The position numbers were made by a program, and so were the translations under genes. The notes below the pieces were generated by a model. It saw only the letters and a list, made by a program, of their open reading frames with translations, made no database searches and was not told the DNA's origin. Positions 29,781-40,278 of a DNA stretch of 64,000 bases are shown here, in pieces (position 1 is the stretch's first letter; the number at the start of each line of letters is the position of its first letter). Source of the DNA: a virus (Duplodnaviria; Caudoviricetes); IMG/VR virus record IMGVR_UViG_3300017963_000032, positions 15,465-79,464 of that record; one strand, given 5' to 3'.

Positions 29781-29805
29781 TTATGTTGTCATTTTCATGT
29801 TGTTC

Positions 29806-29895
29806 GGGTGGCGTAGAATAGGGTTACTTCGCTTGAAACGAAACCAAAATAGGCTGTAAGAGCCTATTGTCTATACCCTGTTTGATTGTACCCCC
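29806..29895 (+). ncRNA. Y-RNA-like element 1
   Basis: GGTGGCGTAG-AATA-GGGTTACTTCG 5' strand pairs with ACCCTGTT...CCCCC. Internal hairpins TTCG-CTTGAAA-CGAA and AATAGGCT/AGCCTATT. Confidence 0.7.
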
Positions 29896-29910
29896 ACAAC
29901 TCATGTTCAT

Positions 29911-30035
29911 GGTGGCGTAGTCGAGAGTTACTTCGACTCGTAATCGAGAGGTCGCAGGTTCGAATCCTGTCATGTGCTTCGGCACGTGTAGCTCAGTTTG
30001 GTAGAGCGCTAACGTACTCTCGACGACTGTTCCCC
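29911..30035 (+). ncRNA. YrlA-like Y RNA, element 2 (permuted tRNA mimic)
   Basis: Closing stem GTCGAGAG/CTCTCGAC. Anticodon-like arm 29932-29948, T arm 29954-29970 (TTCGAAT), 7-bp acceptor stem closed by UUCG 29971-29988, D arm 29991-30007. Confidence 0.85.
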
Positions 30036-30072
30036 TTCATAATCATAAGCACTAAGGTACCAGATTGACAGT

Positions 30073-30138
30073 ATGCGGTGACGTAAACAAGGGATACTTC
30101 GTTCCTAAGAAAAGACCCTCGTTGCTTGTTTCCCGCAT
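30073..30138 (+). ncRNA. Y-RNA-like element 3 (minimal)
   Basis: GGTGACGTAA-ACAA-GGGATACTTCG; termini ATGCGG/CCGCAT pair. Confidence 0.6.
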
Positions 30139-30155
30139 TCATTATCATAGTCATT

Positions 30156-30270
30156 GGGTGGCGTAGTAAAGAGTTACTTCGGTAAAAAACAAACTTCAAA
30201 ATTTGTTCAACTGGTTCAAATCCAGAATCCCTTCGGGGTTTCAAAACGTACTCTTTACGTCCGTTCCCCC
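30156..30270 (+). ncRNA. Y-RNA-like element 4 (T arm plus capped acceptor, no D arm)
   Basis: GGTGGCGTAG-TAAA-GAGTTACTTCG pairs with GTACTCTTTAC. CTGG-TTCAAAT-CCAG T arm and a cUUCGg-capped stem. Confidence 0.72.
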
Positions 30271-30307
30271 GGACAATTTAATAAATAAGAACATGAGGTG
30301 TTTGAAC

Positions 30308-31855
30308 ATGAGTAAATACAACAAGCCTACTAGAGGCAAAGATAAGACTGTAAACCACGAAGGAGATGTGGCTTACAAATTGGATAGCAAAACAGAACTG
30401 TATTCTACAGTCTGCACATCAATGTTGCAGAACAAGTTCTACGAGAAAGAAGATGAAACTCTGAATAGAATCAGAACTCTCATCAAGACTACAGACCCAG
30501 AGTTTGTGGCTAAGCTAGCAGTGTATGCAAGAGAGAAGATGTACCTTAGAAGTATACCTTTAGTCCTTGCAGTTGAGCTGGCAAAGGTCCACAACGAGGA
30601 CAGCATTCTTGGAAGAACTGTTAGCAGAATAGTCCAAAGGGCTGACGAGATAACAGAGATTCTAGCTTACTACAAAGAAGCTAACAAGGATAACTGGGAG
30701 ACTGAAAAGAATTCTGGAAAGACAAAGCATCTTGGAAGATTATCAAAGCAGATAGCTAAAGGTCTGAACTTTTCTTTTAACAAGTTCGACGAGTACCAGT
30801 TTGCTAAGTACAACAGAAAGGGCCAAGTTACTTTGAAGGATGCACTATTCCTAGTTCACCCAAAGGCAAAGAATAAAGAGCAGCAAAAACTGTTTGATAA
30901 GATTGTCAATGGAGAACTAAAGACACCTGAAACTTGGGAAGTTAAGATGAGTGAAGGTGGAAAGGAAGGAGCTGACAAGAAAGAAGTCTGGGAGAAAATG
31001 ATTAGCTCAGGCAAGATGGGTTACATGGCAATGCTGAGAAACCTAAGAAACTTCTTGGAAGCTGACGTGAGCCAGAAGCACATGGCTGATGTAGCGCAGA
31101 CTCTTGCAGACCCTGAGAAAGTTAGAAAGAGCAAGCAGTTACCATTCAGATTCTTGAGCGCTTACAAAGAGCTGAAAGGAAACAAGAGCTCTAAGGCTAC
31201 AATGATTTTGAACGCTCTGGAAGAAGGAGTGATTACAAGCATTGAGAACTTGAAGGGCTATGATTATAACACAACTGTTTGCGTAGCTTGTGATGTTTCA
31301 GGAAGTATGCAGCATTCAATCAGTGACAGAAGCAAGGTCGAACTTTACGACATTGGATTGCTACTTGGTATGCTATTGCAGTCAAGATGCAAGAGTGTAA
31401 TCACTGGTATATTCGGAGACACTTGGAAGATTAAAGCACTTCCTCAAAAGAGCGTCTTGCAGAATGTGATGGACTTGCATAACATCGAAGGAGAAGTTGG
31501 TTACTCAACTAACGGGTACAAAGTAATCCAAGACTTAATCACTAGAAAGGAGAAAGTGGATAAGATTATGATATTCACTGACTGTCAGATGTGGAACAGT
31601 TACTCTGGAAGTAGAGGAAGCTTTGCTACTTGTTGGTCTGAATACAAGAAGATTCATCCAGAAGCAAAACTCTACTTGTTTGATTTGTCAGGTTACGGAA
31701 ACACTCCTGTATCTGTTAAAGGAGATGGAGTTTACTTGATTGCAGGATGGAGCGAGAAAGTCTTTGATATGCTAGCTGCAATAGATAAGGGCAGTAATGC
31801 AGTGAAGGAGATTGAAAGCATCGACTTGTTCAAGAAACCAAGCAAGAAGAAATAG
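30308..31855 (+). CDS. rsr: Ro60/TROVE-domain RNA-binding protein with vWA domain
   Basis: TVNHEGDVAY, EFVAKLAVYARE..YLR, FDEYQFAKY, ETWE, MGYMAMLRNLRN, SKQLPFRF, CDVSGSM (MIDAS), FTDCQ. GAGGTG RBS before ATG 30308. Confidence 0.95.
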   Translation: MSKYNKPTRGKDKTVNHEGDVAYKLDSKTELYSTVCTSMLQNKFYEKEDETLNRIRTLIKTTDPEFVAKLAVYAREKMYLRSIPLVLAVELAKVHNEDSILGRTVSRIVQRADEITEILAYYKEANKDNWETEKNSGKTKHLGRLSKQIAKGLNFSFNKFDEYQFAKYNRKGQVTLKDALFLVHPKAKNKEQQKLFDKIVNGELKTPETWEVKMSEGGKEGADKKEVWEKMISSGKMGYMAMLRNLRNFLEADVSQKHMADVAQTLADPEKVRKSKQLPFRFLSAYKELKGNKSSKATMILNALEEGVITSIENLKGYDYNTTVCVACDVSGSMQHSISDRSKVELYDIGLLLGMLLQSRCKSVITGIFGDTWKIKALPQKSVLQNVMDLHNIEGEVGYSTNGYKVIQDLITRKEKVDKIMIFTDCQMWNSYSGSRGSFATCWSEYKKIHPEAKLYLFDLSGYGNTPVSVKGDGVYLIAGWSEKVFDMLAAIDKGSNAVKEIESIDLFKKPSKKK

Positions 31856-32226: not shown

Positions 32227-32364
32227 AGGCGGGTGCCAGAGCCCGGTTGAATGGGCTGGACTTAGGAGCCAAATGGCTTGGTCAAAGGGCCACACTCAAA
32301 ACCGATAGCTTAGAAATCCAGTGCGGTAGCGCTAAACACGTGGGTTCGAATCCCACCCCGCCTA
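32227..32364 (+). tRNA. tRNA-Leu(TAG) with 37/38 intron (32267-32315)
   Basis: CTGGA/TCCAG stem, long V arm, A73; BHB with one U.U pair. Confidence 0.82.
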
Positions 32365-32370
32365 TCAAAT

Positions 32371-32500
32371 GCCGAGGTTGAGCAGCTGGTAGCTCGCTGG
32401 TCTGCTGATTAACTCAGCCCAGAGTGGAGTTCCGGGTTGTTAGCCCAGAGTTGAAAACCAGTTCCCTTGCGGTCTGCGGGTTCGAGTCCCGTCCTCGGCG
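32371..32500 (+). tRNA. tRNA-Ser(TGA) with non-canonical 32/33 intron (32403-32450)
   Basis: Strict BHB: central helix CTGG(32397-400)/CCAG(32445-448) with bulges TCT and AGT. Spliced loop CTTGAAA; G73; extended V region. Confidence 0.8.
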
Positions 32501-32504
32501 TTAC

Positions 32505-32577
32505 GGGCAGGTAGCTCTAATGGTAGAGCGGTTGGCTTGCATCCAACAGGCTTCGGGTTCGAATCCCGACTTGTCCA
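32505..32577 (+). tRNA. tRNA-Ala(TGC)
   Basis: Cloverleaf; G3.U70. Confidence 0.95.
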
Positions 32578-38837: not shown

Positions 38838-38948
38838 GGTGCTGTGGCGCAACTGGTGAGCGCATCCGGCTGATAAGGAGCGTGCAGAGCTTATATGCAC
38901 AGTTGCGAAGAGTCTGGAAGGCTAAGGGTTCAAGTCCCTTCAGCACCA
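38838..38948 (+). tRNA. tRNA-Ile(GAT) with anticodon-loop intron (about 38876-38912)
   Basis: TCCGG-CTGATA...CTGGA; relaxed BHB with tandem G.A pairs. Confidence 0.8.
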
Positions 38949-38953
38949 TTCAT

Positions 38954-39061
38954 AGGCGTGTAGTCTAACGGACAGGACTCTTGGCTTCTATGCAGTGCAT
39001 GGCTAGGAAGAAGTCATGTCGAAGAGACCAAGGAATCTGGGTTCAAATCCCGGCACGCCTA
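38954..39061 (+). tRNA. tRNA-Arg(TCT) with 37/38 intron (38991-39026)
   Basis: BHB central helix CTTC/GAAG. Confidence 0.88.
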
Positions 39062-40146: not shown

Positions 40147-40278
40147 GGGAGCGTAGTGTAACGGCACCACGTTGGACTCCAGATTCTAGGGTAGAGTTTA
40201 ACACCCTCCGCCCAAAGAATACCCCTCGGATAACAAAGGAGAAACCCAAAGATGCTGGTTCGAATCCGGCCGTTCCCA
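40147..40278 (+). tRNA. tRNA-Trp(CCA) with 37/38 intron (40183-40243)
   Basis: BHB central helix CTCC/GGAG; A31.C39 mismatch. Confidence 0.85.

What the first reader, a model, noticed from the sequence alone, without database searches (positions are those of the whole stretch)
29911..30035. Y RNAs retain anticodon-arm mimics (possible anticodon-nuclease decoys) and a built-in alternative pairing
Seen: element 2 has a 5-bp stem with 7-nt loop CU-CGU-AA (Thr-like) plus T arm, 7-bp UUCG-capped acceptor and D arm, so all four tRNA arms hang off the closing stem. Element 1 has a CU-UGA-AA loop (Ser-like) and element 4 an 8-nt CU-UCA-AAA loop. TCGAGAG occurs twice (29921, 29944) and either copy can pair with CTCTCGA (30017-23). 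In typical YrlA the Ro stem replaces the anticodon arm. Inference: these are non-chargeable anticodon decoys or sensors, and the duplicate pairing may allow a conformational switch after cleavage.
Basis: partly seen in the sequence, partly recalled or inferred. Interest (0 to 1): 0.78.

Follow-up and report, generated by a model that had tools for sequence, protein, structure and literature searches.

The report
Y RNA carrying a whole permuted tRNA
This viral Ro60-partner RNA (a Y RNA) contains a complete tRNA look-alike, including a conserved anticodon-type hairpin, which extends known tRNA mimicry by Y RNAs, but the proposed built-in structural switch is peculiar to this one sequence.

Summary
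Element 2 (29911-30035) is a YrlA-class Y RNA, the second of four upstream of a Ro60/TROVE gene in a complete 79-kb tailed virus that is probably archaeal.

The 5-bp/7-nt hairpin is conserved. In viral contigs, with the stems fixed and loop length left free, 42 of 46 distinct Y RNAs have a 7-nt loop. Among those, U33 is 42/42, purine 37 is 42/42 and A38 is 40/42. Positions 34-35 are at random-level variability. The loop-closing pair covaries.

Read in tRNA order, ARAGORN of 31 such RNAs complete tRNAs (here Thr-CGU). The hairpin is the "V" stem-loop of Chen et al. 2014, read here as an anticodon arm. The published YrlA structure paper says YrlA lacks an anticodon loop.

- **Alternative pairing:** the second-copy TCGAGAG pairing is at chance level in relatives and unique to this window.
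- **Elements 1 and 4:** their loops are not conserved.
- **Decoy role:** untested. Hughes et al. 2020 already suggested that YrlA might inhibit an anticodon nuclease.

The scan noted this same stretch before, in another window of the same genome. I rate it a new variant of a known kind, of moderate interest.

The parts
29807..29894 (+). Element 1: short Y RNA without a tRNA-like module. It has a small hairpin UUCG/CUUGAAA/CGAA at 29828-29842.
   Evidence: R1 covariance model 34.5 bits. Fold z-score -3.0. The 7-nt loop is not conserved in short Y RNAs, being seen in 4 of 39.
29911..30035 (+). Element 2: YrlA-class Y RNA with a complete, circularly permuted tRNA module.
   Evidence: Rfam YrlA 43.8 bits, E 2.5e-8, below the gathering score of 69. 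R1 117 bits. 79% identical over its whole length to Y RNAs of Xanthomonas phages and 74% to those of Caulobacter phages.
29911..29919 (+). 5' strand of the Ro60-binding stem, GGUGGCGUA. It holds a one-off variant (GGCGUAG) of the published GNCGAAN0-1G motif.
   Evidence: G2, U3, G4 and G7 are invariant and A9 and G10 nearly invariant in 23 homologues. The motif is defined in PMC4201824.
29920..29927 (+). Closing stem, 5' strand. It contains the first TCGAGAG copy.
   Evidence: Pairs with 30017-30024. Paired in 92.9% of cells, with compensatory changes in 7 of 8 pairs.
29928..29931 (+). UUAC, the conserved YUAY motif of YrlA RNAs.
   Evidence: UUAC or AUAC in 113 of the 128 Bacteroidota Y RNAs tabulated. 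YUAY is described in PMC4201824.
29932..29948 (+). Anticodon-arm mimic: 5-bp stem (29932-29936 with 29944-29948) and 7-nt loop CUCGUAA (29937-29943). The CGU triplet is at 29939-29941. The 3' strand is part of the second TCGAGAG copy.
   Evidence: 7-nt loop, U33, R37 and A38 are conserved. The 31:39 pair covaries as AU 8, CG 7, UA 2. The Rfam tRNA model aligns it to the anticodon arm.
29949..29953 (+). 5-nt variable loop AGGUC.
   Evidence: The hairpin ends 5 nt before the T stem in 26 of 38 cases. G41 and U42 are nearly invariant.
29954..29970 (+). T arm, GCAGG / UUCGAAU / CCUGU.
   Evidence: Paired in 99% of cells, with compensatory changes in 4 of 5 pairs.
29971..29988 (+). 7-bp acceptor-like stem closed by a UUCG tetraloop. 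There are no free ends and no CCA.
   Evidence: Read directly from the sequence. The outer three pairs covary.
29989..30008 (+). U8-A9, the D arm (GCUC / AGUUUGGUA / GAGC) and G26.
   Evidence: D stem paired in 100% of cells. The nucleotides that form tRNA tertiary contacts are present, by direct reading.
30009..30016 (+). 3' linker CUAACGUA between G26 and the closing stem.
   Evidence: The GCUAA stretch is conserved. GUA can pair with UAC at 29929-29931, which adds -2.2 kcal/mol, but this pairing is only partly conserved.
30017..30024 (+). Closing stem, 3' strand. It contains CTCTCGA.
   Evidence: It can also pair with the second copy at 29944-29950, which the minimum-free-energy fold of this RNA uses. 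That pairing is not conserved.
30025..30035 (+). 3' strand of the Ro60-binding stem, GACUGUUCCCC.
   Evidence: The terminal CCCC pairs with GG.GG in 97.8% of cells.
30075..30136 (+). Element 3: short Y-like RNA with a variant 5' motif, GGUGACGUAA.
   Evidence: Fold z-score -3.05. Motif scan. It was not reported by R1 at E 0.01 or better.
30157..30269 (+). Element 4: Y RNA with a T arm and an acceptor-like stem but no D arm. It has a 4-bp hairpin with an 8-nt loop at 30190-30205.
   Evidence: R1 39.8 bits. Fold. No such 8-nt-loop hairpin is seen in L048.
30308..31855 (+). Ro60 (TROVE plus vWA) gene.
   Evidence: Pfam TROVE 1.8e-38. vWA_Ro60 5.1e-6, 26.9 bits, just under its 27.7-bit cut-off. 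53-59% identical to Bacteroidota Ro60.

Best explanation
Element 2 is a YrlA-class Y RNA. A conserved bulged stem (GGUGGCGUAG... with ...CUGUUCCCC) is the predicted Ro60 binding site. An 8-bp closing stem carries the effector module.

In this subfamily the module is a complete tRNA, circularly permuted between positions 26 and 27. In order it has:
- an anticodon arm;
- a 5-nt variable loop;
- a T arm;
- an acceptor stem closed by a loop;
- U8-A9, a D arm and G26.

The anticodon-type hairpin is the stem-loop that Chen et al. 2014 called V. Selection keeps the architecture of an anticodon loop:
- 7 nt;
- invariant U33;
- purine 37;
- A38;
- U36-A37 or G36-G37.

The anticodon itself (positions 34-35) is free to vary.

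Inferred mechanism: the RNA does not decode. Bound to Ro60, it shows a full tRNA shape to one or more tRNA-binding proteins that touch the anticodon loop as well as the elbow. Candidates are a nuclease, a repair ligase or nucleotidyltransferase, or a modification enzyme. It would act as a tether or a competitor within the virus's tRNA-maintenance gene island.

The anatomy and its conservation are shown. Ro60 binding, the partner and the direction of the effect are inferred.
For: **Identity as a Y RNA**
- Rfam YrlA E 2.5e-8.
- It lies 273 nt upstream of a TROVE gene on the same strand.
- It is 79% identical over 125 nt to Y RNAs next to TROVE genes in Xanthomonas phages and 74% in Caulobacter phages. 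Their Ro60 proteins are only about 32% identical to this one.

**Structure**
- All helices covary on a MAFFT alignment that was not fitted to the structure and on 144 distinct matches of the covariance model.

**Anticodon-arm character**
- 7-nt loop in 38 of 92, against 7.7 expected. The stem is 5 bp in 34 of 38. The hairpin starts 4 nt after the closing stem in 29 of 38 and ends 5 nt before the T stem in 26 of 38.
- With fixed stems, 42 of 46 have a 7-nt loop. U33 is 42/42, R37 42/42 and A38 40/42. G37 occurs only after G36, in 6 of 8 against 0 of 34.
- In-silico de-permutation makes ARAGORN of 31 as tRNAs. The window gives a 76-nt tRNA-Thr(CGU).
- The nucleotides for the U8-A14, G15-C48, G18G19-U55C56, G26-A44, 10-25-45 and 13-22-46 contacts are all present (direct reading).

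**Hypervariable anticodon**
- Positions 34-35 differ in 60-76% of pairs at nearly every level of flank divergence, and in 33% of the three closest pairs. Position 33 differs in 0% and position 38 in 0-14%.

**Context**
- A CCA-type nucleotidyltransferase and an HD hydrolase lie directly upstream. RlaP, Pth2 and about 20 tRNA genes lie downstream.

**Literature**
- YrlA folds as tRNA and is modified by tRNA enzymes (PMC4201824; 10.1101/312249).
- A phage Ro60-like protein counters a defence system (PMC11482910).
Against: - No experiment exists on this RNA.
- The nearest-neighbour energy model gives the isolated hairpin only about 2% probability in this sequence. The minimum-free-energy fold uses the other pairing.
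- More than half of viral tRNA-like Y RNAs, and about 85% of Bacteroidota ones, lack the 7-nt hairpin. They use a stem formed in trans next to the D arm instead. The hairpin is therefore not needed for Y RNA function in general.
- The covariance model was seeded with hairpin-bearing viral sequences, so the frequencies are biased.
- Rfam's gathering score for YrlA is not reached.
- The published expectation is an effector that reads the elbow, not the anticodon loop (10.1101/312249).
Confidence: 0.6

Rival explanations
1. Anticodon-nuclease decoy or sensor. The loop is bound or cut by host anticodon nucleases, which spares viral and host tRNAs or signals their attack.
For: - The conserved anticodon-loop framework with variable positions 34-35 and several different loops per array would fit an arms race.
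- The virus invests heavily in tRNA supply and repair genes.
- Hughes et al. proposed that the YrlA tRNA-like domain may competitively inhibit an anticodon nuclease (PMC7790460).
- The phage Bas63 Ro60-like gp130 counters the ppl defence (PMC11482910).
Against: - Nothing here links the loop to any nuclease.
- Free variation at positions 34-35 is equally what neutral drift predicts.
- A decoy for a specific nuclease should keep that nuclease's target anticodon.
- Salmonella YrlA, which has no loop, was not cut by the DNA-damage-induced anticodon nuclease (PMC7790460).
- The host of this virus is unknown.
Confidence: 0.15
2. Evolutionary relic. The hairpin is the surviving anticodon arm of the first tRNA of a dimeric tRNA ancestor. 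It is kept only because it stabilises the junction, and no partner reads the loop.
For: - The dimeric-tRNA origin model is published (10.1101/312249, Discussion).
- The 5' part of element 2 aligns to tRNA model positions 7-64.
- The commonest triplets, UGU and GUU, look like one ancestral Thr/Asn-type loop.
- Many Y RNAs have lost the hairpin.
Against: A purely structural hairpin does not need exactly 7 nt, an invariant U33, a purine at 37 and A38. These stay fixed where the flanks differ by 45% and positions 34-35 are saturated. The U36-A37 / G36-G37 coupling mirrors the rules of real tRNAs.
Confidence: 0.18
3. Conformational switch. TCGAGAG at 29944 competes with the copy at 29921 for CTCTCGA, giving two functional folds, for example after cleavage.
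For: In this one RNA the two folds are within about 2 kcal/mol (-43.9 against -42.1). The alternative helix has 12% ensemble probability. No shuffle in 300 reaches 7 nt of complementarity.
Against: - The helix is paired in 52% of cells in 23 homologues, which is control level.
- The family mean longest complement is 3.55 against 3.45 for the null. Only 1 of 42 has 7 nt.
- CcrColossus and L057 have no such pairing.
- UCGA is self-complementary and occurs four times, so alternative pairings arise easily.
Confidence: 0.04
4. Precursor of a working or split tRNA. Either RNase P opens the 7-bp acceptor stem and the viral CCA enzyme adds CCA, as in M. smegmatis YrlA, or the archaeal splicing machinery processes it like a permuted pre-tRNA.
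For: - The acceptor stem is exactly 7 bp.
- M. smegmatis YrlA, which also has a 7-bp stem, is cut by RNase P and receives CCA in vivo (PMC4201824).
- A CCA-type enzyme gene lies directly upstream.
- The host is probably archaeal.
- The literature raises processing of YrlA in the manner of permuted tRNAs (10.1101/312249).
- G1-C72, C2-G71, G35 and U36 match the E. coli ThrRS identity elements as I recall them. This is not tested.
Against: - By inspection, no bulge-helix-bulge motif lies at the 26/27 junction.
- The same RNA family is conserved in bacterial phages whose hosts lack the splicing endonuclease.
- The Ro60-binding ends are conserved.
- Anticodon positions 34-35 drift freely, which a decoding tRNA could not tolerate.
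- The acceptor base pairs do not track the anticodon, as the window against Tabio shows.
Confidence: 0.03

Closest known systems
Salmonella Typhimurium YrlA (Rfam RF02553; crystal structure 6CU1)
   Same: It is a partner RNA encoded next to Ro60 with a conserved 5' motif and YUAY. The T arm, closed acceptor-like stem and D arm come in the same order, and the tRNA tertiary nucleotides are present (PMC4201824; 10.1101/312249).
   Different: In Salmonella the stem leading to the Ro60 site itself takes the place of the anticodon stem, directly after the D arm, and there is no anticodon loop. Here a separate 5-bp/7-nt hairpin occupies tRNA positions 27-43. The Ro60 stem is joined through 4-nt and 8-nt linkers. 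The match scores below Rfam's gathering threshold (43.8 against 69).
YrlA RNAs with a 'V' stem-loop (Chen et al. 2014: P. fulva, R. etli, actinobacteria, mycobacteriophage)
   Same: A fourth stem-loop lies upstream of the T arm and after YUAY. This is almost certainly the same element. Two tandem Nonomuraea YrlA-like RNAs have loops CUGAUAA and CUCAGGA.
   Different: It was described as less conserved and drawn as a variable arm. Here the loop size, U33, R37, A38 and the following 5-nt variable loop show that it is co-linear with an anticodon arm.
Mycobacterium smegmatis YrlA
   Same: It has a 7-bp acceptor-like stem.
   Different: It is cut by RNase P and receives CCA in vivo (PMC4201824). 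Whether element 2 is processed is unknown.
Deinococcus radiodurans Yrn1
   Same: It is a Y RNA that can be drawn with a potential anticodon arm of 5 bp (PMC4201824).
   Different: Its loop has 6 nt, the arms are arranged differently, there is no clear D arm, and it belongs to a separate lineage.
Circularly permuted tRNA genes (Cyanidioschyzon merolae, Thermofilum pendens)
   Same: The 3' half lies before the 5' half and the acceptor stem is initially closed (10.1101/312249, Discussion).
   Different: Those carry bulge-helix-bulge motifs and mature into decoding tRNAs. Element 2 has Ro60-binding ends, no evident bulge-helix-bulge motif, a break at 26/27 and a drifting anticodon.
b7a-tRNA (Burroughs and Aravind 2016, as cited in 10.1101/312249)
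   Same: It is a predicted non-decoding RNA that strongly resembles a full tRNA, is linked to RtcB repair loci and is sometimes found next to Rsr.
   Different: It is not permuted and has no Ro60-binding stem. I did not examine it here.

Membership tests
YrlA-class Y RNA | Encoded within a few kb of a Ro60/TROVE gene, on the same strand | tested here: met
   Element 2 ends 273 nt upstream of the TROVE gene at 30308-31855 (+).
YrlA-class Y RNA | 5' Ro60 motif GNCGAAN0-1G | tested here: inconclusive
   The sequence is GGCGUAG, one position off (A to U). This variant is nearly invariant in the phage family. Binding was not tested.
YrlA-class Y RNA | T arm, closed acceptor-like stem and D arm in this order, with the tRNA tertiary nucleotides | tested here: met
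   plus direct reading.
YrlA-class Y RNA | Conserved YUAY before the variable region | tested here: met
   UUAC at 29928-29931.
YrlA-class Y RNA | Rfam RF02553 gathering score (69 bits) | tested here: not met
   43.8 bits, E 2.5e-8. The model's middle helix is deleted and the true 5' end is missed.
YrlA-class Y RNA | Bound by Ro60 in vivo | not testable with these tools
   Needs immunoprecipitation.
Canonical tRNA | Four arms with a 7-nt anticodon loop, U33 and purine 37 | tested here: met
   Met after in-silico de-permutation: ARAGORN calls a 76-nt tRNA-Thr(CGU).
Canonical tRNA | Free 5' and 3' acceptor ends and native co-linear order (Rfam RF00005, at least 29 bits) | tested here: not met
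   The acceptor stem is closed by UUCG. The native sequence scores 22.6 bits over model positions 7-64 only.
Canonical tRNA | Anticodon conserved among orthologues | tested here: not met
   Positions 34-35 differ in 60-76% of homologue pairs at nearly every level of flank divergence.
Circularly permuted pre-tRNA | 3' half upstream of the 5' half | tested here: met
   Order shown.
Circularly permuted pre-tRNA | Bulge-helix-bulge motif at the leader/trailer junction | tested here: inconclusive
   By inspection no 3-nt / 4-bp / 3-nt motif lies at 26/27. The internal loop has 4 nt opposite 7 nt. No formal search was run.
Anticodon-nuclease decoy | Bound or cleaved by an anticodon nuclease, with a protective effect | not testable with these tools
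   Needs biochemistry or phage genetics.

The most novel reading that the evidence does not exclude
Ro60-tethered whole-tRNA mimics with an invariant anticodon-loop frame and hypervariable anticodon positions are viral baits for host enzymes that attack or read the anticodon loop. They diversify in an arms race. Ro60 couples capture of the enzyme, or of damaged tRNA, to degradation or repair.
Probability: 0.15. Interest if true: 0.85.

Novelty: new variant of a known kind. Interest (0 to 1): 0.55.

Why it matters
What the tRNA-like domain of bacterial and phage Y RNAs does has been open since 2014. Published work expects an effector that reads the elbow, and states that YrlA lacks an anticodon loop.

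- **A new constraint on the partner:** a large, mostly viral subfamily keeps a true anticodon-loop architecture while letting the anticodon drift. This points to partners that contact the anticodon loop.
- **Origin:** the retained arm gives direct sequence support to the dimeric-tRNA origin model.
- **Testable systems:** homologues 74-79% identical sit in cultivable phages (Xanthomonas phage Tabio and relatives, Caulobacter phage CcrColossus).
- **Annotation:** at least two GenBank phage records in this set list such a Y RNA as a tRNA gene (tRNA-Thr, tRNA-Gln).

Tried and rejected
- **Second-copy pairing as a conserved helix:** rejected.
- **The 5-bp hairpin of the minimum-free-energy fold, GAGUU/GACUC:** paired in only 63% of cells, so not conserved.
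- **UUAC/GUAA alternative hairpin:** absent in Tabio and in the loops ending GGA, by inspection.
- **RNAfold on the isolated segment between closing stem and T arm:** the hairpins are too weak for consistent predictions, so I replaced this with explicit stem and loop enumeration against shuffles.
- **Regex detection of T and D arms:** too strict, with only 13 distinct sequences found. I replaced it with covariance model R1.
- **Acceptor-stem length as a marker of complete tRNA mimicry:** uninformative, because the boundaries are uncertain.
- **Bulge-helix-bulge motif for archaeal permuted-tRNA processing:** none seen by inspection.
- **Y RNAs next to the TROVE gene of haloarchaeal virus HGTV-1:** no R1 match. 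crAss001 gives only weak candidates.
- **R1 hits at 32307-32552:** these are intron-bearing class II tRNAs, not Y RNAs.
- **Plasmid search:** it gave only a Nonomuraea chromosome-sized record and one short hit.
- **Literature gaps:** the supplementary files of Chen et al. 2014 and the 2020 Annual Review are not held. I could not check whether their figures already show 7-nt V loops.

Full report
**What is there**

The stretch 29797-30275 holds four Y-RNA-like elements on the + strand, directly upstream of a 515-aa TROVE/vWA (Ro60) gene at 30308-31855.
- Elements 1, 2 and 4 open with GGUGGCGUAG; element 3 has the variant GGUGACGUAA. An 8-bp variable stem strand and (U/A)UACUUCG follow.
- Elements 1, 2 and 4 close with the complementary strand and a C-rich tail: GUUCCCC in 2 and 4, GUACCCC in element 1, GUUUCCC in element 3.
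- Element 2 (29911-30035) matches Rfam YrlA at 43.8 bits, E 2.5e-8, below the gathering score of 69.
- ARAGORN calls part of element 2 tRNA-Thr(cgt).

The record is a complete 79,464-bp IMG/VR virus with direct terminal repeats. It is a tailed virus (TerL; MuF-like head protein) with signs of an archaeal host.
- TerL hits the haloarchaeal virus HGTV-1 best, and PCNA hits only haloarchaeal viruses.
- It encodes Pth2.
- Several tRNAs carry 38-65-nt introns in the anticodon loop.

**Check of the observation**

Element 2 reads, in order:
- the Ro60-stem 5' strand;
- the closing-stem 5' strand, which contains the first TCGAGAG copy;
- UUAC;
- a 5-bp stem with the 7-nt loop CUCGUAA;
- AGGUC;
- the T arm;
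- a 7-bp stem capped by UUCG;
- UA, the D arm and G;
- an 8-nt linker;
- the closing-stem 3' strand, which contains CTCTCGA;
- the Ro60-stem 3' strand.

The nucleotides that make the tRNA tertiary contacts are all in place by direct reading. These contacts are U8-A14, G15-C48, G18G19 with U55C56, G26-A44, 10-25-45 and 13-22-46.

**Relatives**

- Element 2 is 79% identical over its full length to unannotated stretches upstream of TROVE genes in 43-kb Xanthomonas phages (Tabio and relatives). It is 74% identical to one in Caulobacter phage CcrColossus. The Ro60 proteins are only about 32% identical.
- In two GenBank records the 5' part of such an element is annotated as a tRNA: tRNA-Thr in phage 10KY502B and tRNA-Gln in CcrColossus.
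- Those phages also carry arrays of about five Y RNAs.
- A motif scan and a Ro60-profile scan of IMG/VR gave 136 loci.
- A covariance model built from 23 full-length elements found 205 matches in 94 viral loci. It found 286 matches in 80 Bacteroidota loci, whose Ro60 is 53-59% identical to the window's.

**Which pairing is real**

On the MAFFT alignment, which was not fitted to any structure, I compared two models.
- *Closing stem with the first TCGAGAG copy:* paired in 92.9% of cells, with compensatory changes in 7 of 8 pairs.
- *Hairpin:* paired in 78% of cells, including five members that lack it. Its loop-closing pair switches among A-U (8), C-G (7) and U-A (2).
- *Helix with the second copy:* paired in 52% of cells, equal to the slid controls at 43-51%.

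A register-free test on 42 hairpin-bearing members gives a mean longest complement of 3.55 nt against 3.45 for shuffles. Only the window reaches 7 nt.

In this one RNA the two folds are nearly iso-energetic, at -43.9 against -42.1 kcal/mol. The alternative pairing is therefore physically possible here, but it is not a family trait.

**Is the hairpin an anticodon-arm mimic**

Among 92 distinct viral tRNA-like Y RNAs:
- The best hairpin between closing stem and T arm has a 7-nt loop in 38, against 7.7 expected from shuffles.
- The stem is 5 bp in 34 of 38.
- It starts 4 nt after the closing stem in 29 of 38.
- It ends 5 nt before the T stem in 26 of 38.

A scan of IMG/VR fixed both stem strands and left the loop free at 3-12 nt.
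- It returned 46 distinct Y RNAs, each followed by a T arm.
- 42 have a 7-nt loop, with U33 42/42, purine 37 42/42 and A38 40/42.
- Position 36 is U in 33 or G in 8.
- G37 occurs only after G36.
- The 19 chance hits without a T arm have loops of 5, 7, 8, 11 or 12 nt.

Positions 34-35, and also 32, differ in 55-76% of pairs at nearly every level of flank divergence. That is the level expected for random bases. Position 33 never differs.

Re-ordering the pieces into tRNA order makes ARAGORN of 31 as complete tRNAs, with the hairpin loop as the anticodon. The window gives a 76-nt tRNA-Thr(CGU).

**Limits**

- The hairpin is not universal.
  - More than half of viral tRNA-like Y RNAs and about 85% of Bacteroidota ones lack it.
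  - Several of those inspected (L034, the first Tabio element, L135) form the anticodon-stem equivalent in trans, directly after the D arm, as in Salmonella YrlA.
- Short Y RNAs such as elements 1 and 3 show no consistent 7-nt loop, with 4 of 39.
- No hairpin like element 4's 8-nt loop is seen in L048, a close relative carrying the same element type.
- The nearest-neighbour model gives the isolated hairpin low probability. Support for it is comparative, not thermodynamic.
- Model R1 was seeded with viral, hairpin-bearing sequences, so the frequencies are biased.

**Comparison with the literature**

- Chen et al. 2014 (PMC4201824) described the T, acceptor-like and D stem-loops. [quoted passage not shown] UUAC here is that YUAY, and the hairpin is that V stem-loop.
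- Wang et al. 2018 (10.1101/312249) state that YrlA lacks the anticodon loop. They expect an elbow-reading effector, present the dimeric-tRNA origin model, and note the likeness to permuted pre-tRNAs.
- Hughes et al. 2020 (PMC7790460) suggest that the YrlA tRNA-like domain might competitively inhibit an anticodon nuclease.
- A phage Ro60-like protein, Bas63 gp130, counters the ppl defence (PMC11482910).
- Two tandem YrlA-like RNAs in Nonomuraea carry loops CUGAUAA and CUCAGGA, so the feature also exists in cellular actinobacterial YrlAs.

What is new here:
- The V stem-loop of a large subfamily is co-linear with tRNA positions 27-43.
- It is under selection for anticodon-loop architecture.
- The anticodon itself drifts.

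I could not read the 2014 supplementary figures or the 2020 review.

**Mechanism**

Shown: the anatomy, its covariation and its conservation.

Inferred:
- Ro60 binds the terminal stem.
- The module is displayed as a non-decoding whole-tRNA look-alike.
- The invariant U33, R37 and A38 imply a partner, or a fold requirement, at the loop.
- The free positions 34-35 argue against decoding and against a decoy tuned to a single anticodon.

The gene neighbourhood fits a role in tRNA damage control during infection. It holds a CCA-type enzyme, an HD hydrolase, RlaP, Pth2 and about 20 tRNAs. Whether the RNA is a competitor, a tether or a substrate is open.

**Verdict**

The anticodon-arm reading is supported. 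The switch is not supported. The decoy role is unproven. This is a new variant of a known kind of RNA and of moderate interest. The scan had already noted the same stretch in another window of this same genome.

Noticed in passing
window 30308-31855; L141-L220: The Ro60 of this apparently archaeal tailed virus is 53-59% identical to Ro60 of Bacteroidota (Flavobacterium, Hymenobacter, Chitinophaga, Bacteroidales). Its Y RNA 2 is 74-79% identical to those of proteobacterial phages. This suggests that the Ro60-Y RNA cassette moved across domains.
   Followed up: partly
L141-L220 (e.g. L199 4497-6008, L147 5200-6121, L172 4140-5859): Bacteroidota chromosomes carry long tandem arrays of tRNA-like Y RNAs directly downstream of Ro60, up to seven or more model matches per locus.
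   Followed up: partly
L010 6131-8318 and L014 8900-11087 (also L075, L076): The Ro60 reading frame of this viral relative is interrupted by about 670 nt between residues 168 and 171. This may be an intein, an intron or an inserted gene.
   Followed up: no
L002 3002-3069; L003 3672-3739: The GenBank features tRNA-Thr (Xanthomonas phage 10KY502B) and tRNA-Gln (Caulobacter phage CcrColossus) are the 5' parts of Y RNAs, not tRNA genes.
   Followed up: yes
window 32228-32500, 38838-38948, 38954-39061, 40147-40278: Viral tRNA genes carry 38-65-nt insertions in the anticodon loop, which are archaeal-type introns. Two class II tRNAs at 32228-32500 are missed by ARAGORN and by Rfam at its gathering threshold.
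   Followed up: partly
L221 3944-5473 and 6118-6999: Haloarchaeal virus HGTV-1 has a TROVE gene 34% identical to the window's, followed by a nucleotidyltransferase gene. My model finds no Y RNA nearby, so its partner RNA, if there is one, is divergent.
   Followed up: partly
window 29896-29910, 30036-30052, 30137-30155: The spacers after elements 1, 2 and 3 share a UCAU..AUCAUA-like motif. This may be a processing signal in a polycistronic Y RNA precursor.
   Followed up: no
L292 2479-2775: Nonomuraea gerenzanensis has two tandem YrlA-like RNAs with 7-nt anticodon-like loops, CUGAUAA and CUCAGGA. The 11.8-Mb record is labelled a plasmid in PLSDB.
   Followed up: partly
L222 6691-7413: In crAss001 an SPFH/band-7 protein gene lies about 2 kb downstream of the TROVE gene. 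This recalls the published link between band-7 proteins, tRNA-like RNAs and Rsr.
   Followed up: no
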